Origin: Candidatus Poribacteria bacterium
GTDB taxonomy: Bacteria; Poribacteria; WGA-4E; WGA-3G
Length of the DNA: 64,000 bases
Assembly (NCBI GenBank): GCA_965197475.1
Contig: CBDANF010000003.1
Coordinates: 32,001-96,000, forward strand
Reading direction: 5' to 3'
Part shown: positions 5,589 to 62,556 of the stretch, piece after piece
Position numbering within the stretch: the stretch's first letter is position 1
Layout of the letters: every line of letters starts with the position of its first letter
Notes under the pieces: generated by a model
Database searches by the model: none
Told to the model about the DNA's origin: nothing
The model's input: only the letters and a program-made list of their open reading frames with translations
Position numbers and translations under genes: made by a program

Positions 5589-5758
5589 CGGAAATCCGTA
5601 TGACGTGCCGCTTTCTCAAGTGTTGCACTACTTTCCTTAGTCTGCCTGCTCTGTTAGGTGAGAAGCCGCATATAGGATTCTACCAAACTTAATTTATTAT
5701 ACAGTGACGGAGGATCGTTAGCAACTAAAATTGTGCCGTGGCACAGGATACACGCCTG

Positions 5759-5864
5759 GATATGTATAGTTTTTGCCAATTTCTATACATATCATGGACA
5801 ATATGTATACTTTCTATACATATCATAACCGATATGTATAGTTTTTGCCAATTTCTATACATAT
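5759..5864. repeat. array of three palindromic units built from ATATGTATAG/CTATACATAT half-sites
   Basis: GATATGTATAG-TTTTTGCCAATTT-CTATACATAT at 5759 and 5831 (identical), with a short-loop variant at 5801-5824. Confidence 0.9.
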
Positions 5865-5905
5865 TAAGTTTAGACATGTTCTCTTTTCAACTAGCTGCTG
5901 GATTG

Positions 5906-7543
5906 CTACACCAAATTATACGGCATTTGGCGGAAGGTTATCCCGCGTTCCTTTAACAACCCTATGCTGAGTTGCGTGCCGCCGCAATGGATAATCTTTC
6001 TGTCATCATGACACGGCAAACGGTTTATGAGCTCGTCGTTAAGGACATCTTCATTGTTGAGCAGGTAGACAGCGGCACCGTCCACGCTCCCTAAAAAGGC
6101 GCGTTGGTGTCTTTCAAGAGTTGTGCAGGAGGCATACGACGGTCTGTCCCCTTCCATAAGATTTAGCACTGTGTCAGCTGCAATCGGAGTACCTGTCTCC
6201 TTGAAAAAGAGGTACTGCGCCATTTCATGAAATGGAATTTCCGATCTTTCCAAGAAGGTCTCACCAACGTGATAATAAGCAAAGGTGTCTTTAGTGCCAA
6301 AACCTTGCAATAGTGTGTTCTCCCGATCAAAGGTGTAGCCTTCACTGACGCGTTTGAGACGTTCCGCTGTAATTTCACGGGCTATCTTCGGCTCCAATTC
6401 AACTAAAATGAATTGGCGATTGCCATTGTCGTCTCGGTTTTGTGCGAGGACAGCGTGACCTGTTGTGCCGCTGCCTGCAAAGGAATCTAAGACAATTGAG
6501 TCAGGACCAGTGGACAAAAAAATCAAACGCTTAATTAGGTCTACAGGCTTACTATTATCAAAAACTTTTTTTTCAAAAATTGCTTTTTGCTCATTTGTGG
6601 CATCAGTTGTTGTTGCAATATCGTAATAAATGCTACGCTCTTTAAGAATTTTCGCTTTGTCTCGTTTCTCATCGAAATAGATAATTTCGTACGGTGTCCA
6701 ACGCCCACTTCTTTTTTCCCAATGAATATGATCTTGATCCAAAGCAGTAGGGCGAGTTCGCCAATTTCCATCATTTCCATCGGGGGCTTGCGGATAAAAG
6801 GGATTCCCATCTGGATCTTCAATTGAGTAAAACATTGTCGGTCTGTCCTCTCTATATGCGTTAGAACCCCATTTTTCAAGTTTCACGAATTTACACTTTC
6901 GTCCGTTTTTGACTTTAGGAAATTCGGCTTGAGTCCTTTCCGCTGTTCTGAATTTCATAGTAAAGGCATCACTTTTTCGGTAACAGAGAATGTATTCATG
7001 TTCTCGTGCGTAGTATTCGGAGTCTTGACCGCCTCCCGATTTTTTTCTCCAGATCAGATTGGCTACAAAGTTGGTTTCACCAAAAATTTCGTTCATTAGT
7101 AAACGTAGGTTCGGTTGTTCGTTATCGTCAAGCGTGATGAAGATCACACCATCTTTTCGGAGGAATTGATGAAGTAAGCAGAGGCGTGGATACATCATGC
7201 AGAGCCATTTGTCGTGCCGAGAAAGATCTGCTGCCAACGAACCGACAGTTTTTCCAAGCCATTTCTGGATGGTTGGGTTGTTAACGTTATCGTTGTAAAC
7301 CCAACTTTCGTTGCCAGTATTATAGGGAGGATCAATAAAGATACATTTGACTTTGCCAGCGTAGTAGGGTAGGAGTGCCTTGAGCGCGGTAAGGTTGTCA
7401 CCTTCAACGAGGAGATTGCCAATGCCAAGCGGTTCATTATCGTATCCGAAGGATCGGTCACGGTCGAGCGTGAGGGTGTGTATCGGCACCTCATCGTGGT
7501 GATTGATAACTGCTTCTTTTCCTATCCAGTTCAAGGTAGGCAT
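5906..7543 (-). CDS. mod: type III R-M Mod subunit (N6-adenine DNA methyltransferase, beta class)
   Basis: MPTLNWIGK start at 7543; IDPPYNTG; HDKWLCMMYPRL; LDSFAGSGTTGHA. Confidence 0.92.
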   Translation of the reverse strand: MPTLNWIGKEAVINHHDEVPIHTLTLDRDRSFGYDNEPLGIGNLLVEGDNLTALKALLPYYAGKVKCIFIDPPYNTGNESWVYNDNVNNPTIQKWLGKTVGSLAADLSRHDKWLCMMYPRLCLLHQFLRKDGVIFITLDDNEQPNLRLLMNEIFGETNFVANLIWRKKSGGGQDSEYYAREHEYILCYRKSDAFTMKFRTAERTQAEFPKVKNGRKCKFVKLEKWGSNAYREDRPTMFYSIEDPDGNPFYPQAPDGNDGNWRTRPTALDQDHIHWEKRSGRWTPYEIIYFDEKRDKAKILKERSIYYDIATTTDATNEQKAIFEKKVFDNSKPVDLIKRLIFLSTGPDSIVLDSFAGSGTTGHAVLAQNRDDNGNRQFILVELEPKIAREITAERLKRVSEGYTFDRENTLLQGFGTKDTFAYYHVGETFLERSEIPFHEMAQYLFFKETGTPIAADTVLNLMEGDRPSYASCTTLERHQRAFLGSVDGAAVYLLNNEDVLNDELINRLPCHDDRKIIHCGGTQLSIGLLKERGITFRQMPYNLV

Positions 7544-17252: not shown

Positions 17253-17750
17253 TCAATTTGTATCTGTTGATTTATCCTTTTTTGGATTGGCGATCTCGAA
17301 CTGATGGATGGCGTGTCTATAGATAAGTACCATCTGGTTATTTACATTCATTGTAAAGTTATATTCATTGTATTCTACCGGTATGCCGTAAAGGATATGT
17401 CCGTTTCGGAGTGTCACCTTGACGTTTTTCTGTGCCAACTTGCGCATGGGGCGTTTCCCAATGATTTTCGGTCGCTTATGTGGGTCTTTATCGGTTCGGA
17501 GTTTTTCAGCTTCAACTTCTTTGTTTATCCGCAAAGCGTTTCCTAATTCATCCGCGGATTCTGGCATCAGGCAGAAGAGAATATCTACTTTGGGGAACGA
17601 GCCTGTAGATGTCCGGATCTCATATTTCTCTATTTCTGTGATATTTACCTTTTTGATACCGTCATAAGTTACGAGCAGCACGGGACCTTGAAACCTATTG
17701 AGCAAGGTTGTGGTTTCAAGGTTTTGTGTTGGACCGTTCTGTTGCGTCAT
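17253..17750 (-). CDS. protein with C-terminal Hfq/Sm-like domain
   Basis: VKVTLRNGHILYG...QMVLIYRHAI resembles the Hfq Sm1/Sm2 motifs (YKHAI); about 105-aa N-terminal extension. Confidence 0.55.
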   Translation of the reverse strand: MTQQNGPTQNLETTTLLNRFQGPVLLVTYDGIKKVNITEIEKYEIRTSTGSFPKVDILFCLMPESADELGNALRINKEVEAEKLRTDKDPHKRPKIIGKRPMRKLAQKNVKVTLRNGHILYGIPVEYNEYNFTMNVNNQMVLIYRHAIHQFEIANPKKDKSTDTN

Positions 17751-17947
17751 AGGATGGACCTCCAAAATAATAATTTTTGATATTTTACCGTAAATATAAC
17801 TTGATTTGTTAATCTTTGTTTAGACAGTCTACATAACTGATGGACTGCTTTGTGAAATGTCTGAGAGAACTGCACAAAAAGGTGCAAATTTTATACCCGA
17901 TTGCACGGAATTGGGCAGTGAGTTAGACTCACGTTATTACTTATAGT

Positions 17948-17976
17948 TTGTATCAAATGACCCCATGAGTTATACT
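17948..17976 (+). promoter_or_regulatory. sigma70 promoter of the DUF1670 operon overlapping the left IR
   Basis: TTGTAT-17 bp-TATACT; GGAGG RBS before ATG 18044. Confidence 0.6.
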
Positions 17977-18043
17977 ATTAGTATTCGTTAAACTAACGAG
18001 TAGATGTCCTCGGATCCCCGATAATCTATTCATGGAGGTCAAT

Positions 18044-18844
18044 ATGAACCGCAAGAAGGATACCGCTTACGGTATCACTCGGCTCGAATCCAAGAATGCC
18101 AGAGCCGCGATTATTCAGAAGATTTCAGCAGACTTTAATCTCATGCCTCTCGTTGCTGAAGCCTACTATAAACAGATTTCTACCTACTTTGAACAACATG
18201 CCGATGTGCAACTCACATCAGGGCAAATCTGCTACGAGGCAGTCGCCGCTGAGGAACCCGCAGGCAAACACATCGCTTTAGCGAAAAAAGTCTCCTGTCG
18301 ACTCAAACTCAACGATGTTGAAGCCGACCTTGAAGTTTTAGCGACTTATGGGCTCGCAGGACTCAGACGGCATCGGATCCTCCGATTGACCCAAGAAGCT
18401 TATGACCAAGAAGCCTTGCTGAGTTATGAGGATTTGGCGGTGTTATTAACCACCAGTCCTGCCACCGTCAAACGCGACATCCGAGCGTTGAAGCAGTCCG
18501 GCTATTTCGTGATGACGCGCGGGGCGAAACACGACATGGGCCCGGGACTGTCTCATAAGACGCAGATTCTCGAGCTGTACTTCAAAGCATACACCTTCAC
18601 CGAGATTGAGCAAAAGACGAACCACTCCGAACGGGCTGTCTACCGCTACTTGAGGGACTTCACACAAGTTGCCACGCTCCATCATCAAGGGTTCCCTAAC
18701 GCTCAGATACGCCTGATTTCTCATCTCTCTGACCGGTTGATACGCGAGTATCTCTCGCTGTTCAAGGAATATCAACACACCGATCGCATGACCCAACTCC
18801 TTCACCCAGAACCAGAGGACACAAAAAAGGAGGATCTCTCATGA
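18044..18844 (+). CDS. DUF1670-like protein A (multi-HTH)
   Basis: EAYDQEALLSYEDLAVLL..S.ATVKRDI, TRGAKHDMG..SHK, HSERAVYRY. Family recognised from memory of the motif. Confidence 0.8.
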   Translation: MNRKKDTAYGITRLESKNARAAIIQKISADFNLMPLVAEAYYKQISTYFEQHADVQLTSGQICYEAVAAEEPAGKHIALAKKVSCRLKLNDVEADLEVLATYGLAGLRRHRILRLTQEAYDQEALLSYEDLAVLLTTSPATVKRDIRALKQSGYFVMTRGAKHDMGPGLSHKTQILELYFKAYTFTEIEQKTNHSERAVYRYLRDFTQVATLHHQGFPNAQIRLISHLSDRLIREYLSLFKEYQHTDRMTQLLHPEPEDTKKEDLS

Positions 18845-19725
18845 GCAAACCTCTAACACGCACGCAAATCAACGAGAAGAAATTCAGACGCATCAACGAT
18901 AAATCCCTACGACAGTTGCTTATCCATCGCTTTCTCAATGACTACGGGTATGACAAAGGCGAAGTCACTGCCACCGCCATTGTTGATGATATTCTCAAGA
19001 CCGTTGAAGACTATTTCGTAATTACCCTCCCCTTGGAAAAACTCGCCACCGGTGATCAACTCCCAGATGAGCGTTTCCTAAGTTATGGACAACTCGTTTG
19101 GATGGCCGTCCCTATTGATGAACATCCAGAAAGAGGAAAGTCCATCGTCAAAACTCGGATGAAACCCATCATCCTGACCTACCTCGCCGCAGAGGATATT
19201 GAATCTTTTAGAAACGGTTTCACCTCCCGGCAATTGCGGATCAATCGCTTGGTCCGCTGGTGTCATCAAGCTTATGACCAAGGGGCATTATTGACACAAC
19301 TCGACTTGGCAGTTTTGCTCAATGTCTGCGATGCCGTTGTCTGTGATTATGTTAATGAATGGCAAAAAACCACTGGAGAACTCTTGCCCACCCGTGGCAA
19401 TATCCATGACTTATCGGGGGCTATTACCCATAAGAAAGAGATCATAACCCTCTATCTTCAAGGACATCTCACCCCCAGGATTGCCGCAAAGACCAAACAC
19501 TCTAAGGAGGCAGTTGATAGATACATTCGCGATTATGAGAGCGTCAAAGTCGTTCGCACCGCTACCACAGATATTGATAAAATCTCACAGATCACCCGAC
19601 TTTCTAAACGCGTTATCACTCAATATCTGGACCTGATTCCGCAGCCCCAACTCCAAGCCATAGATGCAAACCTTGCCAATTCAGACTCAAACGATGAAGC
19701 CACTCACCAAGGAGAAGCCCAATGA
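18841..19725 (+). CDS. DUF1670-like protein B (paralog of A, ATGA-coupled)
   Basis: QAYDQGALLTQLDLAVLL, PTRGNIHDLSG..THKKEII.LYLQG, HSKEAVDRYI. Confidence 0.8.
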   Translation: MSKPLTRTQINEKKFRRINDKSLRQLLIHRFLNDYGYDKGEVTATAIVDDILKTVEDYFVITLPLEKLATGDQLPDERFLSYGQLVWMAVPIDEHPERGKSIVKTRMKPIILTYLAAEDIESFRNGFTSRQLRINRLVRWCHQAYDQGALLTQLDLAVLLNVCDAVVCDYVNEWQKTTGELLPTRGNIHDLSGAITHKKEIITLYLQGHLTPRIAAKTKHSKEAVDRYIRDYESVKVVRTATTDIDKISQITRLSKRVITQYLDLIPQPQLQAIDANLANSDSNDEATHQGEAQ

Positions 19726-19792
19726 GACCCTAATCCTATGTTCCCGACGAACTTTACTTCGCAAAACCGGGGCAGGTGCCTTGAAAATATGG

Positions 19793-19821
19793 TTGACAAC
19801 CGCTACCGGTTTTGCTATACT
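19793..19821 (+). promoter_or_regulatory. strong outward-facing sigma70 promoter in the element right end
   Basis: TTGACA-17 bp-TATACT with extended -10 TGn. The -35 is flanked by IR GCAAAACCGG (19761) / CCGGTTTTGC (19806). Confidence 0.75.
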
Positions 19822-19827
19822 TTAGAC

Positions 19828-19954
19828 ACGTTTATCGCTAAACGCATCATTTCTCAAAGAGGATGCTCGCGATCCCAACGCAACCCACTCATCAACGATC
19901 GCTGGGAAGCCAATGAACATCAGCCTTCCAGCTATCCTATGGTCATTTGATACT
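19828..19954 (+). ncRNA. putative structured right-end RNA of the DUF1670 element
   Basis: Four consecutive potential stem-loops downstream of a near-consensus promoter; 147/151 nt identical in the mini copy. Confidence 0.5.
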
Positions 19955-22049
19955 ATTTTCTTATTAGCATTTTTCTGGTAGCAGTGAACTTGCCTACGGT
20001 TAACGTATAGAAATAGATTCCACTTGCCACAGGTTCACCCACATCATTTCTACCATTCCAATACGCCGCACGGCTGCGACTTTTATAGATACCAGCATCC
20101 TGATGTCCCAATACTAAGGTCTTAACTATTTTACCATTTGCAGCATAGATTGTCAAACTCACCTCAGCAGGTTTAGCAAGATGATAGGGTATCCACGTTT
20201 CTGGATTAAACGGATTCGGATAGTTTGCAAGCAGCTTTGTTTTTTCAGGAGTCAACGATGTTAGAAGCCTCTGGAGATTCGCTATGCCCTTTCGAAAAAC
20301 AATAGAACCGTCGTTTTCTATCTGCGCCTGCGTTATCCATGCTCGTATCATTGCGGGCATTAATTCTTCACTATTTATCACAACAAGATTCATATCAATG
20401 CCACGGTTGGTAATTAATGTCGGAGCAGATGCGGTTGTCTCACCTATATGCTGTGCAACAGCGATGAGGTCTAAGATGCCGATCGTCCCATCGCTGTCCA
20501 CGTCAGCTTGTGGCGTGACGGATGCATCTTTTCCCAAGTATTGTGCCACCTGCATTAGATCTAAAATGCTCACTTGCTCATCCTGATTTACATCCCAAGG
20601 CAAGAACACACGCTCTTCCACAGTGATAACAAAATCAGGAATGCTCAGAGAAATTGTTACCAAGTCACTTGAACCTGCATATAAGTTGGTAAGTGTTACT
20701 TGCGCTTCGCCAATCGCCTTTGCCATAAACGTTACCGACAGCAGCTTGCCTGTGCCGCTTACGCCGTCTCTGCTCAGACTTATCGCGCCGAGTCCGGTGA
20801 TTTTCCCTGCTGTGTTATCAATCGTGCTTTCAAGAAAGAATGTCGTTCTATCATCTTTCTTCAAGAAATCACCTTCGCTCACCTCAACTGCTTCAAGGGC
20901 AGCAGGGTCAAATACAATATTACATAACCATCCCGCTAAATCAGTGGTGTTTTCTACGTTGAGATGTAGTGTAAACGTATCATCAACGCGAACAGGGAGT
21001 TCATCTATAGAAAAAGAGAGATTGGCACTATTCACATCCGATACGGTGATCACAATCTCTGGAATACTCAGAGGAATTGCTACCGACTCGCTTGAATCTG
21101 CATATAGGTTGTTAAGCGTGACTTGTGCTTCGCCAATCGCCTTTGCTACAAATGTCACCGACAACAATCTGCCTGTGCCGCTTCCCCCGTCTCTGCTCCG
21201 GCTTACCGAGCCGAGTCCGGTGATTTTCCCTGCTGTGTTATCAATCGTGCTTTTGAGAAAGATGGTTGTTGCATCGCCTTCTTTCAAGAAATCGCCTTCG
21301 ACCACTTCAACAGCTTCAAACACATTCGGGTCAAACACAATATCACATTGCCAACTGGCTAAGTTGGTGATTTCATCTGCATTTAGATAAAGCGTAAATG
21401 TATCTCCGATGACAACAGATGTCGTATCAATGGAAAAGGAAAATCTGGGATCGCTCTCATCCAATTCGGGTTGCTCTTCCACAGTGATGACAATCTCTGG
21501 AATACTCAGAGTCAGAGGAATTATCTCTAAAACACCCGCCTCTGAGACATTACTCGAACCTGCCTTTAAGTTAGCAAGAGTGACCTGCGCTTCGCCAATC
21601 GCCTTTGCCACAAATGCTACCGACAACAATTTGCCTGTGCCACTAACACCACCTTTGGAAGTTCGTGCCGCGCCGAGATCAGTGATTTTCCCTGCTGTGT
21701 TATCAATTGCGCTTACAAGAAAGTGGGTTTTTCCACTACCTCCTTTCAAGAAGTCGCCTTCAACCACTTCAACTGCTTCAAGCACATTGGGGTCAAATAC
21801 TATATTACATTGCCATCCTGCTAAATCGGTGACGTTTTCTACATTCAGATGCAACGTAAACGTATTGTCAACGTGTACGGGTGTTTCATCTATAGAAAAG
21901 GAGAGTAGTGCTTCTTCAACAGCGGTAGGTTGATTATCGTCAGGGATGTTAACATTTTGTGCCACTATTGTAAGTGGAAACATCAAAAACAACATTGCAC
22001 AAATCCCAAAAGTGTAAACAAAATTATATTTTTCATTAACTATATCCAT
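19953..22049 (-). CDS. secreted protein: 3 cohesin-like repeats + dockerin/EF-hand + FlgD-Ig/T9SS-like C-terminal domain
   Basis: Three LAGWQ.NIVFDP..LEAVEV.EGDFL repeats; DVNQD/DVDSDG; NYPNPFNPETWIPY...TRKMLIRK. Confidence 0.85.
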   Translation of the reverse strand: MDIVNEKYNFVYTFGICAMLFLMFPLTIVAQNVNIPDDNQPTAVEEALLSFSIDETPVHVDNTFTLHLNVENVTDLAGWQCNIVFDPNVLEAVEVVEGDFLKGGSGKTHFLVSAIDNTAGKITDLGAARTSKGGVSGTGKLLSVAFVAKAIGEAQVTLANLKAGSSNVSEAGVLEIIPLTLSIPEIVITVEEQPELDESDPRFSFSIDTTSVVIGDTFTLYLNADEITNLASWQCDIVFDPNVFEAVEVVEGDFLKEGDATTIFLKSTIDNTAGKITGLGSVSRSRDGGSGTGRLLSVTFVAKAIGEAQVTLNNLYADSSESVAIPLSIPEIVITVSDVNSANLSFSIDELPVRVDDTFTLHLNVENTTDLAGWLCNIVFDPAALEAVEVSEGDFLKKDDRTTFFLESTIDNTAGKITGLGAISLSRDGVSGTGKLLSVTFMAKAIGEAQVTLTNLYAGSSDLVTISLSIPDFVITVEERVFLPWDVNQDEQVSILDLMQVAQYLGKDASVTPQADVDSDGTIGILDLIAVAQHIGETTASAPTLITNRGIDMNLVVINSEELMPAMIRAWITQAQIENDGSIVFRKGIANLQRLLTSLTPEKTKLLANYPNPFNPETWIPYHLAKPAEVSLTIYAANGKIVKTLVLGHQDAGIYKSRSRAAYWNGRNDVGEPVASGIYFYTLTVGKFTATRKMLIRK

Positions 22050-59967: not shown

Positions 59968-62120
59968 ATGCTACGAACGAAATTATTCATATCTATATTT
60001 ACGCTTTTAACACTACTTTTCATCATTCCGTTGGGGCATTGGCACAAGGTGTTAACATTCCCGACCCGAACCTGCGGGCTACTATTGAAGAAGCACTCGG
60101 TAAAACACCGGGTGTCCTGATTACAGAAAATGAGATGGCAACGCTGGTAGACCTTGCAGCGCGTGACAAAGAGATTAAAGATTTAACAGGACTCGCGTTG
60201 GCAATAAATCTACAAGACCTCAACCTTCGCAACAACCTGATAGATGACATATCCGAACTGACAGGATTGGAGCGACTCAATAGTGTTGACTTGGGTGCAA
60301 ACGTTATAGAGGATATTTCACCGCTCAAGGGTAAAATCATCATGAGATCTCTAGTAATTGACAATACTTTCGTATCCAATCTTGAATCTTTGGAAGGATT
60401 AATCAACTTGGCATATCTAGATATTTCGCATAATGACTTGATTGAAGACCTATCCCCCCTTGGGAATTTAAAAAGGCTGAGGGAATTAGTGATGCATAAC
60501 CTGAAGGGATTGGCGATATCTAATAATAAAGCAGCTGACCTATCCCCCCTTGCAGGATTAATTAGTCTGATAAATTTTCACTCATTTGGCACCTCTATAT
60601 CAGACCTCACCCCCTTGGCAAGCCTACCTAAACTCAGGTTGATTAATATCCATAGCGCGGGAATAAGCGATCTTTCTCCGCTGGAGGGATTAACAGGTTT
60701 GAGAGAGCTATATCTCTTCAACAACAAAATAGAGAACATATCTCCGCTGGCAAGTTTAACAGGCTTGACCCGTTTGAGTCTAAGACATAACAAGGTCTCG
60801 GATGTATCTGCCCTTGCCGCGCTGCGTAATTTGAGATTTATAGATCTTGAAGACAATAAGATATCGGATTTTTCCAAATTGAATGTATTGCGTCTCGGCG
60901 GTACAACTATCCTTGGGAACAACAATCCTGGATTCATAATTGATGCCCCGAAAATCAAGGGTCCGTGGTTGTGGGTAATAGTACCAACTGAAGGAATGTC
61001 CGGGTCGGAAGCGGCAAAATCAAGCACAGATTTTTTGGCACAGGCAAGCGGTGGTACTATTACAGAAGAGATAGTTGCGACTCAAGGTGCTGTTGAAGGT
61101 GCTTCCGTTGGGAATAAGAAGTGGAAAGTTGGTGAACTTTCTCGAAGAGGTGGCAATAACATCAATGAACTTGTAAACGAGGTAGGACTCGGAATAGATG
61201 ATATAAATCATCATGTAGCATACGGTTCAATTATCTTGTCTTCTCCGCAGGAACAGCAGTCAAAGATGTTTGTCGGTAGTGGTGACGCTGTAAAGGTATG
61301 GCTCAACGGTGAATTAGTGCATAATAAAGCCGTAGATCGGGATGCCGACGATTATCAAGATACTGTTGGTGTTGTGCTGAAAAAGGGTGAAAATTTCTTG
61401 TTAGTTGCTGTCTATGAGGGCAAAGGGTGGTGGTCAGGTTTTTTTGGTCTTGACCCTGCCACGCAATTTACAGTCTCTCTACCGAATCCCAGGCTTCCGG
61501 TAGACCATCCAGCGGATGTGAATGGAGACGGAAAAGTGAGTATTCTTGATATGATTCAGGTAGCAAGGTCTTTTGGATTACTCAAACCTGGCGGTTCAAC
61601 TGCAGATGTAAACGGTGATGAAGTTGTTGACATCGACGACCTCATCTTTGTAGCACAACATATAGGCGATCTAACGGATAGTGATGCATCTGCCGCGTTC
61701 TCTCCCGCAATGATACAAGGTTGGATATCACTCGCCTGGGAGAGATACGATGGTTCAATCGAATTCCAGAAAGGAATAACGAACTTAGAAAATATCTTAA
61801 TATCTTTGAAGTCAAAGAAAACAGCAAAGAAAACAGTCCTATTTGCGAATTACCCTAACCCGTTTAATCCGGAGACATGGATACCTTACCAATTGGCAGC
61901 ACCTACTAAAGTAGTTTTGACTATCCATTCTGCAACGGGGTCAGTCGTGCGAACCTTGGCATTAGGATATCAGGCTGCGGGGGTATATAAAACTCGGAAC
62001 CGCGCTGCACACTGGGATGGGAAAAATGAGACCGGTGAATCTGTGGCGAGTGGAATCTATTTTTATACGCTAACAGCAGGAGATTTCACAGCAACGCGGA
62101 AGATGCTAATTCTTAAATAG
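59968..62120 (+). CDS. secreted LRR + dockerin + FlgD/T9SS-like tail protein; signal peptide out of frame
   Basis: AGGAG + ATG at 59968 encodes a signal peptide one base out of frame at a G4 run (60033-60036). The body has LRRs, DVNGDG and NYPNPFNPETW..TRKMLILK. Confidence 0.8.
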
Positions 62121-62556
62121 TATCAAATGACCATAGGATAGCTGGAAGGTTGATGTTTATTGGCTTCCCAGCGATCATTAATGAGTGGGTTGCGTTGGGA
62201 TCGCGAGCATCCTCTTTGAGAAATGATGCGTTTAGCGATAAACGTGTCTAAAGTATAGCAAAACCGGTAGTAGCAGATTTGTCCTGATGTCAGTCGCACA
62301 TCGGCGTGTTGATCAAAATAACTCGAAATCTGTTGATAGTAGGCTTCGGCAACGAGAGGCATCAGATTAAAGTCTGATGAAATCTTCTGAATAATAGCGG
62401 CTCTTGGATTCGGGTTCTCCGTTTGATACCGTAGGCGGTATCCATCTTGCGGTTCATATTGACCTCCATGAATAGAGTATCAGGGATCCGAGGACATCTA
62501 CTCGTTAGTTTAACCCATACTATTAGTTTGACTCATGGGGTCATTTGATACAAACT
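62119..62556 (-). mobile_element. 438-bp internally deleted (non-autonomous) copy of the DUF1670 element
   Basis: Same IRs (62120-62132, 62539-62551) and AT direct repeat (62117-18, 62557-58). Left end plus degraded orfA 5' part joined at about 62270 to the right end. Confidence 0.9.

What the first reader, a model, noticed from the sequence alone, without database searches (positions are those of the whole stretch)
17945..19954. Candidate new mobile-element family encoding only a tandem DUF1670 pair
Seen: two translationally coupled paralogous DUF1670-like ORFs lie between perfect 13-bp IRs (GTATCAAATGACC) set asymmetrically inside AGT...ACT termini, flanked by an AT direct repeat. A second copy with the same termini sits at a different locus. 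No DDE, HUH, serine- or classic tyrosine-recombinase motif is evident. Known: DUF1670 is a domain of unknown function. Inference: the A/B pair is the transposase/recombinase, perhaps a heteromer. The conserved RG..HD, (S/T)HK and HS..AV.RY residues are catalytic candidates.
Basis: partly seen in the sequence, partly recalled or inferred. Interest (0 to 1): 0.93.

Follow-up and report, generated by a model that had tools for sequence, protein, structure and literature searches.

The report
New insertion element with only HTH proteins
This is a real, recently active jumping gene that lands precisely in the last codon of secreted-protein genes without changing them, yet it codes only for two DNA-binding-type proteins that resemble no known DNA-cutting enzyme, so how it moves is an open and testable question.

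Summary
The element is 2,014 bp (window 17943-19956), ends ATAGT...ACTAT, and duplicates TT, not AT. This is shown by two orthologous empty sites and one filled allele in related genomes. The only genes are two overlapping DUF1670 paralogues, both under strong purifying selection (dN/dS 0.03-0.10). Eighteen of 20 copies sit, in one orientation, inside the last Lys codon of T9SS C-terminal-domain genes, and the element end restores Lys plus a stop codon. The same A-then-B pair, the same end motif, TT flanks and T9SS-tail targets recur in MAGs labelled Ignavibacteria, Bacteroidetes, Bacillota and Neomarinimicrobiota. Pfam, NCBIfam, PDB sequence search and Foldseek find only HTH modules and no DDE, serine, tyrosine, HUH or DEDD domain. 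Best reading: an autonomous site-specific insertion sequence of a new family, with the DUF1670 pair as its recombination machinery. Whether the pair does the chemistry itself or recruits a host enzyme is unresolved. No open full-text paper mentions DUF1670.

The parts
17943..19956 (+). Whole element, 2,014 bp, ATAGT...ACTAT
   Evidence: Boundaries come from 18 full-length copies, from empty sites in G065 and G035 and from the filled allele in G045.
17941..17942 (.). Left copy of the TT target duplication
19957..19958 (.). Right copy of the TT target duplication
17943..17962 (+). Left end: terminal ATAGT, a 3-nt offset, then the 13-bp repeat GTATCAAATGACC (17950-17962)
   Evidence: It is conserved in 6 Poribacteria-type elements and, as ATAGTTAGTATCAAATGATACC, in other phyla.
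19941..19956 (+). Right end: 13-bp repeat GGTCATTTGATAC overlapping the terminal ACTAT
18044..18844 (+). orfA, DUF1670, 266 aa, starting at the ATG behind GGAGG (an upstream ATG lies at 18032)
   Evidence: The AlphaFold2 model has pLDDT 88.7. dN/dS is 0.09-0.10.
18841..19725 (+). orfB, DUF1670 paralogue, 294 aa; its start overlaps the orfA stop (ATGA)
   Evidence: dN/dS is 0.03-0.08.
19726..19940 (+). Conserved non-coding right arm, specific to the Poribacteria-type elements
   Evidence: Diversity among copies is 0-0.03 here, against up to 0.15 in coding parts. The compact elements of other phyla lack it.
19793..19821 (+). Outward-facing promoter-like site, TTGACA-17-TATACT with TG
   Evidence: It matches 11 of 12 consensus positions. 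Both hexamers are conserved in all 6 aligned Poribacteria-type elements while neighbouring bases diverge. Function is not shown.
19953..22049 (-). Target gene: cohesin/dockerin protein with a T9SS-type tail. Its stop codon TAG (19953-19955) is made of element bases.
62119..62556 (-). 438-bp MITE-like derivative (left 291 nt plus right 152 nt of the element), next to another T9SS-tail gene (tail at window 61851-62111)

Best explanation
An autonomous, site-specific insertion sequence of a previously unclassified family. Its only two products, the paralogous multi-HTH proteins DUF1670-A and -B, are its recombination machinery.

Shown: the element is mobile. It duplicates TT. It inserts in one orientation after the second base of the last Lys codon of T9SS C-terminal-domain genes. 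Its end (..A|TAG) rebuilds Lys plus a stop codon, so the host protein is unchanged. Both genes are under purifying selection. The gene pair, the end motif and the type of target travel together across phyla.

Inferred: A and B act together as a multi-module assembly that binds the near-palindromic subterminal site (GTATCA-AA-TGAyC) at each end, pairs the ends, recognises the T9SS-tail DNA and exchanges strands at the TT. The element probably passes through an excised circle. In that form the ends would meet as the dyad ACTAT-TT-ATAGT, and the conserved outward promoter of the right arm would read into orfA-orfB.

The chemistry, carried out by A/B through an active site of unknown type, is the weakest inferred step.
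For: Mobility. There are 18 full-length copies that are 92-100% identical to one another, with identical boundaries, plus 2 deletion derivatives. Two precise orthologous empty sites and one filled allele were found. PF07900 is present in 41 of 151 genomes of the phylum, with between 1 and 18 or more matches, always as adjacent pairs. In sponge metagenome contigs the summed contig depth over the element is in the thousands, against about 10 for the left flank in run X1.

A/B are needed. dN/dS between subfamilies is 0.09-0.10 for A and 0.03-0.08 for B. Fourteen of the 18 full-length copies keep both frames open. The element has no other gene. All 40 matches to the 13-mer that lie in element copies are the two ends of the 20 copies; the other 110 of the 150 matches at up to 2 mismatches show no element context. 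A MITE that keeps only the ends exists, and a second deletion form is seen in public contigs. This implies factors acting in trans on the ends.

Co-inheritance across phyla. In 8 loci from MAGs labelled Ignavibacteria, Neomarinimicrobiota, Bacteroidetes and Bacillota, both genes are present in A-then-B order; a ninth (L051) has a broken A followed by B. The ends of 9 loci were printed. Most carry ATAGT(TAG)TATCAAATGATACC-type ends, three left ends differ slightly, and five of their right flanks were read as ...KKMILLK-type tails.

Several modules act together. Fused two-fold (about 500-545 aa) and three-fold (about 930-950 aa) DUF1670 proteins exist, and this genome holds one natural A-B fusion.

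Target. Eighteen of 20 right flanks encode a canonical tail ...ATRKMLILK*. Thirteen of the 40 Por_Secre_tail matches in the genome are occupied.

Circle-type regulation. The outward promoter-like site is conserved in all 6 aligned elements.
Against: No catalytic domain is detectable. Pfam and NCBIfam give only DUF1670 and weak HTH families. A profile search of PDB sequences gives only HTH proteins. Foldseek of a confident A model (pLDDT 88.7) finds nothing at E<0.1 in the PDB and only HTH arrays with TM below 0.2 in BFVD. The ESM Atlas gives only HTH_23-type clusters at 0.80, and nothing for residues 1-122. None of 10 longer family members carries a fused enzyme domain.

Several conserved motifs are explained by HTH consensus. 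No circle junction was observed, but only contigs were available. The similarity between the target and the element ends is not above shuffles in this genome.

The window copy's own two flanks are not an original pair. Its left flank pairs with the right flank of copy C2:1160547, so some copies have recombined or the assembly is chimeric there.
Confidence: 0.55

Rival explanations
1. A and B are only the DNA-recognition and synapsis (specificity) factors. They recruit a widespread host enzyme, such as a Xer-type tyrosine recombinase, a topoisomerase or a repair nuclease, that cuts and joins the DNA. This would resemble the way IMEX elements exploit XerCD.
For: Every recognisable part of A and B is HTH or winged-HTH. 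No nuclease or recombinase fold or motif was found. The joined ends would form a lox- or dif-like dyad, with 13-bp arms around a short spacer.
Against: The targets are at least 18 different gene ends, not a single dif site. Identity between the ends and the target at the crossover is only the TT, which is unlike the 6-8-bp overlap of tyrosine recombinases (recalled knowledge). The element works in at least four or five phyla, so the host factor would have to be universal. No candidate partner was identified.
Confidence: 0.3
2. The element is non-autonomous. Another transposase encoded elsewhere mobilises it, and A/B are passenger regulators, for example of the adjacent T9SS gene or of the element's own expression.
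For: HTH-only proteins are typical regulators. The RBS region of orfA carries a half-site-like GGTCA in Poribacteria-type elements and GGTATCA in other phyla. This matches the outer half of the respective inverted repeat and suggests autoregulation.
Against: No other locus in the genome carries the inverted repeat. The pair and the ends stay together across phyla in elements as small as about 1.75 kb, with no room for another gene. Strong purifying selection in a multicopy element is what a transposition function would give.
Confidence: 0.08
3. RNA-guided recombination. The conserved 230-nt right arm with its promoter would encode a guide RNA (bridge or seeker-RNA-like) that selects the T9SS-tail target.
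For: The right arm is more conserved than the coding sequence. The outward promoter-like site is conserved. Insertion is site-specific with a 2-bp core.
Against: There is no DEDD or other RNA-guided enzyme and no Rfam match at E<=1. Complementarity or similarity between the ends and the target is not above shuffles. Covariation gives no support (covariation term +0.42). Elements of other phyla hit the same kind of target with little non-coding DNA beyond the end repeats, at most about 130 nt printed after orfB and less where the right repeat could be placed.
Confidence: 0.03
4. It is not a mobile element but a two-gene module that is part of T9SS gene cassettes and was copied together with that gene family.
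For: It is always next to T9SS-tail genes.
Against: Empty sites are precise, and in one case the flanks are 100% identical. Identical element copies lie beside T9SS genes that are only about 79% identical to each other. A TT duplication is present. MITE derivatives exist. Some sites are not T9SS tails.
Confidence: 0.01

Closest known systems
IS630 / Tc1-mariner elements
   Same: They are small elements with a 2-bp target duplication and terminal inverted repeats bound by helix-turn-helix modules. B and some relatives give weak hits to HTH_23, HTH_28 and HTH_29. From recall, these models cover the DNA-binding parts of such transposases.
   Different: There is no DDE_3 or RNase-H-like domain. 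The duplication is TT, not TA. There are two paralogous proteins instead of one. Insertion is strictly at one kind of gene end.
Serine-recombinase elements (IS607 family, large serine integrases)
   Same: Insertion is site- and orientation-specific, with only a 2-bp non-palindromic core shared by element and target. The domain order, an N-terminal domain, a long helix and then HTH, is loosely reminiscent. The comparison rests on recalled knowledge of these enzymes.
   Different: There is no resolvase catalytic domain by Pfam or by fold, and no conserved N-terminal Ser-Arg motif.
IS110/IS1111 elements (DEDD recombinase plus bridge or seeker RNA; PMC11208160 and PMC11187229, seen only as search listing and abstract)
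   Same: They show sequence-specific insertion, a dinucleotide core and a long conserved non-coding arm. A promoter pointing out of one end would act across a circle junction.
   Different: There is no DEDD domain, no RNA-family hit, no guide-target complementarity and no covariation. Relatives in other phyla lack the arm.
IMEX elements that exploit host XerCD (recalled knowledge)
   Same: These are mobile DNA that encodes no recognisable recombinase of its own. The joined ends form a dyad-symmetric site.
   Different: The targets are many T9SS gene ends, not dif. The element encodes two conserved DNA-binding proteins. Only 2 bp are shared at the crossover.
Pfam DUF1670 (PF07900)
   Same: Both ORFs are clear members.
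   Different: The family carries no functional annotation. Sources name members 'DUF1670 domain-containing', 'hypothetical', 'biotin operon repressor' or 'transcriptional regulator'. None calls them transposases.

Membership tests
Pfam PF07900 DUF1670 | Score above the curated cut-off (25 bits) | tested here: met
   A scores 205 bits and B 208 bits.
Insertion sequence (generic) | Multiple copies with identical boundaries, terminal inverted repeats, a target duplication and empty sites | tested here: met
DDE transposases (including IS630/Tc1-mariner) | RNase-H-like DDE catalytic domain | tested here: not met
   No DDE family appears at E<=1 in Pfam. Foldseek finds no such fold.
IS630/Tc1-mariner | TA target duplication | tested here: not met
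   The duplication is TT.
Serine recombinases / IS607 | Resolvase-type catalytic domain with a nucleophilic Ser | tested here: not met
   There is no Pfam hit and no fold match.
Serine recombinases / IS607 | Exchange at a 2-bp core without repair synthesis | not testable with these tools
   A 2-bp TT at both junctions is compatible with this, but sequence alone cannot tell a crossover core from a repaired staggered cut.
Tyrosine recombinases | Integrase-type catalytic domain (R-K-H-R-H/W-Y) | tested here: not met
   There is no Pfam hit. Foldseek against the PDB lists no integrase, Cre or Xer chain among the matches shown.
HUH transposases (IS200/IS605, IS91) | HUH/Y1 or Y2 domain, and no target duplication | tested here: not met
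   There is no Pfam hit, and a TT duplication is present.
IS110/IS1111 | DEDD recombinase plus a guide RNA complementary to the target and donor | tested here: not met
IMEX (Xer-dependent) | Integration at the chromosomal dif site | tested here: not met
   The 20 copies lie at many different gene ends. dif itself was not located.
MITE (second copy, window 62119-62556) | Short, non-coding, with the ends of an autonomous partner | tested here: met
T9SS C-terminal sorting domain (target genes) | Por_Secre_tail match | tested here: inconclusive
   The window gene scores 20.1 bits, below the cut-off of 27. The genome has 40 matches at E<=0.01, some over the cut-off. The tails read ...YFY.L.AG.F.ATRKMLILK*.

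The most novel reading that the evidence does not exclude
DUF1670 proteins are a new class of DNA transposase or site-specific recombinase. They are built from arrays of helix-turn-helix modules plus a small N-terminal domain with a conserved GQ...AV...E.P.GK hairpin. The catalytic centre is unrelated to the DDE, DEDD, HUH, serine or tyrosine enzymes. The enzyme acts as an A/B hetero-oligomer (or as a fused chain in other lineages) and inserts DNA at a protein-read address: the last codons of T9SS-tail genes, exchanging at TT.
Probability: 0.45. Interest if true: 0.93.

Novelty: categorically new. Interest (0 to 1): 0.86.

Why it matters
Known prokaryotic insertion sequences move with a handful of enzyme types: DDE, DEDD, HUH, serine and tyrosine. 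Here mobility is well documented: there are many recent copies, precise empty sites and spread across phyla. Yet the whole coding capacity is two paralogous proteins that look like DNA binders only.

Either outcome would be new. One is a new catalytic class of recombinase. The other is a new way for an element to hijack a host enzyme at sites other than dif.

The element also shows a neat 'safe-harbour' strategy. It uses a sequence repeated at the end of dozens of secreted-protein genes and rebuilds the interrupted codon and the stop. A compact, protein-addressed, orientation-specific integrase of about 560 aa in total could be of practical interest.

The result also gives a function to a Pfam DUF with more than 1,200 clusters at 50% identity. 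It explains many roughly 2-kb orphan contigs in metagenome assemblies.

Tried and rejected
RNA-guide idea. Rfam found nothing at E<=1. Folds of the right arm were only mildly better than shuffles (z -2.3 and -2.1). The ends show no complementarity or similarity to the target above shuffles. An alignment fold of 8 right ends gave no covariation support.

Target mimicry of the element end. I noticed AGTATCA-like words in some T9SS-tail flanks of other phyla and GAATCAA in this genome. The only test I ran was negative, so this is a lead, not a finding.

In my notebook I first wrote that all filled sites had a TAA stop. A recount shows TAA 11, TAG 6, TGA 2 and one odd. Empty sites show 15, 10 and 2 of 27. 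There is therefore no enrichment (corrected).

A+B complex prediction gave a score of 0.19, under the mark of 0.32. It gives no verdict and is not used as evidence either way.

The AlphaFold2 model of B reached only pLDDT 70 and was not used for a fold search.

PHROGs gave only weak regulator hits, and PADLOC gave none. A tblastn of A against plasmids found no match.

Circle junction: only Logan contigs were available, and none bridges the right end to the left end. The RNA libraries X2 and X5 hold the element, but DNA carry-over cannot be excluded, so expression is not shown.

Literature. 'DUF1670', 'PF07900' and 'IPR012871' each gave 0 papers. Three broader searches gave nothing on such an element. 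My statement that no ISfinder family fits is from recall.

The copy at C3:3736913 has flanks that are not syntenic in 5 relatives. That copy and C3:845189 lack an intact T9SS tail. I did not resolve whether they are off-target insertions or rearrangements.
Full report
WHAT IS THERE. Window 17700-20200 holds two + strand ORFs. orfA runs from 18044, the ATG five bases behind GGAGG (an upstream ATG lies at 18032), to 18844. orfB runs from 18841 to 19725. The orfA stop and the orfB start overlap as ATGA. Both are clear DUF1670 (PF07900) proteins, with E 1.1e-60 and 1.5e-61. All other Pfam hits are weak helix-turn-helix families: HTH_11, DeoR, Sigma70_r4_2, and HTH_23, 28 and 29. NCBIfam has no family for them. 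The perfect 13-bp inverted repeat GTATCAAATGACC lies at 17950-17962 and 19941-19953. The window has four matches, against 0.07 expected by chance.

IT IS A MULTICOPY MOBILE ELEMENT. A search of the window's own genome (5.7 Mb in 3 contigs, 92.7% complete, 7% contamination) found several kinds of copy.
- There are 18 full-length copies, each aligned over query 1-2010 at 93-100% identity to the window copy.
- One copy has an internal deletion.
- The 438-bp copy arose by deletion between two GCTAC microhomologies.

The copies fall into subfamilies: three identical copies including the window's, nine nearly identical ones, and others that are 92-98% identical to these. Fourteen of the 18 keep both frames open, three have a frameshifted orfA, and one has a frameshift that fuses A and B into 585 aa. 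Between subfamilies dS is 0.18-0.45, but dN/dS is only 0.09-0.10 for A and 0.03-0.08 for B. Both proteins are therefore kept by selection. All 40 matches to the 13-mer that lie in element copies are the two ends of the 20 copies. The other 110 of the 150 matches at up to two mismatches show no element context. No other element or transposase shares these ends.

TRUE ENDS AND DUPLICATION. The flanks of all 20 copies are themselves conserved, so copy alignment alone cannot place the ends. Empty sites can.
- A related genome, G065, reads ...CATTACTT|CAAAATAACC... at the site orthologous to the window copy's left flank.
- Genome G045 has the same site filled...ATTACTT|ATAG...CTAT|TTCAAAATAACC.
- Genome G035 has flanks 100% identical to copy C3:1504096-1506105 and reads ...ACAATTTACTT|TCGTATTAAC, where this genome has ...TTTACTT-ATAGT...ACTAT-TT-TCGTATTAAC.

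The element is therefore ATAGT...ACTAT, 2,014 bp, window 17943-19956, and it duplicates TT. Joined, the ends would read GGTCATTTGATACTAT-TT-ATAGTTTGTATCAAATGACC, a dyad around TT. The 13-bp arms are set 3 nt further in on the left than on the right.

One caveat applies. The window copy's present right flank is not the partner of its left flank. The partner lies beside copy C2:1160547, which in turn shares 2 kb of left flank at 99.95% with copy C3:845189. This points to recombination among the three identical copies, or to an assembly chimera. The count of independent insertions is therefore about 19 rather than 20.

TARGET. Eighteen of the 20 right flanks, read on the other strand, encode the end of a T9SS-type sorting tail...AAYWDG.N..GE.VASG.YFY.L.AG.F.ATRKMLILK*. 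The window's target gene carries three cohesin stretches, a dockerin, an FlgD_ig domain and a weak Por_Secre_tail match. The genome has 40 Por_Secre_tail matches at E<=0.01, and 13 of them abut an element copy. All insertions have the same orientation, with the right end next to the coding tail.

On the gene strand the empty site is ...AAR TAA/TAG/TGA. The TT that is duplicated is the AA of the last Lys codon. After insertion the gene reads ...AA|A TAG, with the third base of the codon and the stop codon supplied by the element end. The protein is unchanged.

The left-flank conservation (yyAyTT) is simply stop codon plus Lys codon. Filled sites have TAA 11, TAG 6, TGA 2 and one odd, and empty sites have 15, 10 and 2 of 27. 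Many good-looking sites remain empty. Two copies (C3:845189 and C3:3736913) and one element in another genome (L021, inside a T-run of a terminator-like hairpin) are not at intact tails.

THE SAME DESIGN ELSEWHERE. PF07900 is found in 41 of 151 genomes sampled from the phylum, that is in 6 of 22 genera, with between 1 and 18 or more matches per genome. The matches always come as adjacent pairs. Five further elements from these genomes are 1,905-2,006 bp long and have TT flanks. Close relatives of orfB are named by NCBI only as 'DUF1670 domain-containing protein [Candidatus Poribacteria bacterium]'. Public runs that hold the element are sponge metagenomes and metatranscriptomes.

Using a 52%-identical relative as query, I fetched 15 loci from MAGs labelled Ignavibacteria, Neomarinimicrobiota, Bacteroidetes and Bacillota.
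- Eight of these loci hold both genes in A-then-B order, and a ninth (L051) has a broken A followed by B. Cross-phylum identity is 43-48% for A and 44-50% for B.
- The ends of 9 loci were printed. Most left ends read ATAGTTAGTATCAAATGATACC or a close variant, three differ slightly, and right ends read ...GGTATCATTTGATACTAT or a close variant.
- Five right flanks that I read out encode ...KKMILLK...RKMILIK...KKMLFLK...KKMILIK and ...KKFIVVK, followed by the element's TAG.
- These elements are compact, about 1.75 kb, with little non-coding DNA beyond the end repeats.

Gene pair, end motif, TT and kind of target are thus inherited together across phyla. In those lineages the subterminal site is a palindrome, GTATCA-AA-TGATAC; here its outer half is TGACC. 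The region just before orfA varies in parallel, GGAGGTATCA there and GGAGGTCA here, which hints at a half-site used for autoregulation.

At 50% clustering the family has 1,227 clusters at E<=1e-3. It includes fused two-fold proteins (about 500-545 aa) and three-fold proteins (about 930-950 aa). Many members sit on contigs of only about 1-3 kb, as expected for repeats that break assemblies. Methanosarcina acetivorans is the only one of 14 control genomes with the family. I could not examine its loci.

WHAT THE PROTEINS LOOK LIKE. The AlphaFold2 model of A (alignment of 74 sequences, pLDDT 88.7) has the following parts.
- Three N-terminal helices.
- A beta-hairpin (residues 61-68 and 82-88) whose loop carries the conserved E.P.GK.
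- A long helix (92-121).
- A winged-HTH-like stretch matched by the HTH_11 and DeoR models (124-160).
- A flexible conserved linker (D.G.G.[ST]HK).
- Two further helical HTH-like units (171-214 and 219-242).

B has the same layout at lower confidence (pLDDT 70). Foldseek finds no PDB chain at E<0.1, and the best matches are SelB winged helices, MntR and TFIIB-type factors. BFVD gives only HTH arrays with TM below 0.2. A profile search of PDB sequences gives only HTH proteins. The ESM Atlas gives HTH_23-type clusters at 0.80, and nothing for residues 1-122. Ten longer family members carry no additional enzyme domain.

Residues conserved in both paralogues are R13/17, K17/21, G60-Q61, E71/94, G74-K75, D95/119, R108/133, R114/139, Q122/147, D130/155, T158-R159-G160, [S/T]170-H171-K172, H194, R201-Y202, S229 and Y236. 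Reading them as the wing and the recognition helix is from my recall of those families. The HD is not conserved in B of other phyla. The motifs that HTH consensus does not explain are the N-terminal R...K, the GQ..x.AV...E.P.GK hairpin, D95 and the D.G.G.[ST]HK linker.

REGULATORY AND OTHER FEATURES. The 230-nt non-coding right arm is specific to the Poribacteria-type elements. It is more conserved among copies than the genes: diversity is 0-0.03, against up to 0.15 in coding parts. It holds a near-consensus promoter-like site, TTGACA-17-TGcTATACT (19793-19821), pointing out of the right end. Both hexamers are conserved in all six aligned elements while neighbouring positions vary.

In an excised circle or a head-to-tail dimer this promoter would read across the junction into orfA and orfB. 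In the chromosome it reads antisense into the 3' end of the T9SS gene. I found no evidence for a structured or guide RNA.

Public contigs show very high summed depth on the element relative to its flanks. They also show a second deletion form, 17977 joined to 19805 with ATA in between, in two runs. The element is present in two sponge metatranscriptome runs, which is not proof of transcription.

HOW IT MOST LIKELY WORKS. Several things are shown. Insertion is precise, orientation-specific and accompanied by a TT duplication. It occurs at a recurrent gene-end sequence. Amplification is recent. Both DUF1670 genes are under selection. Genes, ends and target are co-inherited. Derivatives that keep only the ends exist.

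The rest is inferred. A and B together (several DUF1670 modules, as in the natural fusions) bind the near-palindromic site at each end, pair the ends, recognise the T9SS-tail DNA and exchange strands at the TT. The element probably passes through a circular form.

Two chemistries fit a 2-bp core. One is conservative exchange at a dinucleotide, as serine recombinases and the IS110 and IS607 elements do. The other is a 2-bp staggered cut with repair, as in IS630/Tc1. Sequence alone cannot separate them. The non-palindromic TT and the single orientation fit the first well.

Who catalyses the reaction is open. I give 0.55 to A/B themselves through an unrecognised active site, 0.30 to recruitment of a host enzyme, and about 0.1 in total to the other readings.

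COMPARISON AND NOVELTY. It works like a site-specific insertion sequence. It is not a member of the DDE, serine, tyrosine, HUH or DEDD families, because their defining catalytic domains were tested and not found. It is a member of Pfam DUF1670, which has no assigned function.

Full-text searches for DUF1670, PF07900 and IPR012871 returned no paper, and broader searches returned nothing relevant. Supplements and ISfinder could not be checked. Public annotations call these proteins hypothetical or regulators. I therefore rate it categorically new in its machinery, whichever of the two leading mechanisms is right, and of high interest.

Noticed in passing
G000 genome, e.g. C2:1399720, C3:945735, C3:1419833 (outside the window): A different palindromic repeat, ...TGTGTATGTAGGGGATCAAAAGACCCCCTACATGTTT..., turned up 13 times with identical context among the 2-mismatch hits to the inverted repeat. 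It looks like an unrelated REP- or MITE-like family.
   Followed up: no
G000 C3:685914-687924 (outside the window): One copy has a 1-nt insertion that fuses orfA and orfB into a single 585-aa frame. This mirrors the naturally fused two-fold DUF1670 proteins of other lineages.
   Followed up: partly
window 17941-19958, versus G000 C2:1160547-1162556 and C3:845189-847198: The three 100% identical copies have swapped or duplicated flanks. The window's left flank pairs with the right flank of C2:1160547, by comparison with G065 and G045. C2:1160547 and C3:845189 share 2 kb of left flank at 99.95%. This is either recombination between copies or an assembly chimera.
   Followed up: partly
window 18033-18043, and L044-L051 just upstream of orfA: The ribosome-binding region of orfA reads GGAGGTCA here and GGAGGTATCA in other phyla. 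It changes in parallel with the outer half of the inverted repeat (GGTCA versus GGTATCA). This may be an operator half-site for autoregulation.
   Followed up: no
window 17963-18010: The left arm carries two direct repeats of the CATGAGTTAtACT / TATGAGTTAnCCT type. They are conserved in other Poribacteria-type elements, and L025 has an extra repeat. They may be accessory binding sites.
   Followed up: no
window 19900-19935: A hairpin, GCTGGGAAG...CTTCCAGC, lies 20 nt inside the right end and is kept in 7 of 8 elements, but without compensatory changes.
   Followed up: yes
L044:3986-7399: A Neomarinimicrobiota MAG contig carries two DUF1670 pairs tail to tail. The second pair, on the minus strand at 5628-7399, is much more divergent. 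It may be a second subfamily inserted beside the first.
   Followed up: no
L021:1334-3332: In another genome of the phylum an element sits in the T-run of a terminator-like hairpin (accgagtttttt | tttcttcaaaactcggt) rather than at a T9SS tail, still with TT on both sides.
   Followed up: no
protein P0174 (339 aa): A DUF1670 protein whose C-terminal part matches the EamA transporter family. This is probably a read-through chimera at an insertion site.
   Followed up: no
window 19953-22049 (-): The target gene encodes three cohesin stretches, a dockerin, an FlgD_ig domain and a T9SS-type tail. This cellulosome-like module set on a T9SS substrate is typical of the surface proteins whose ends the element uses.
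   Followed up: no
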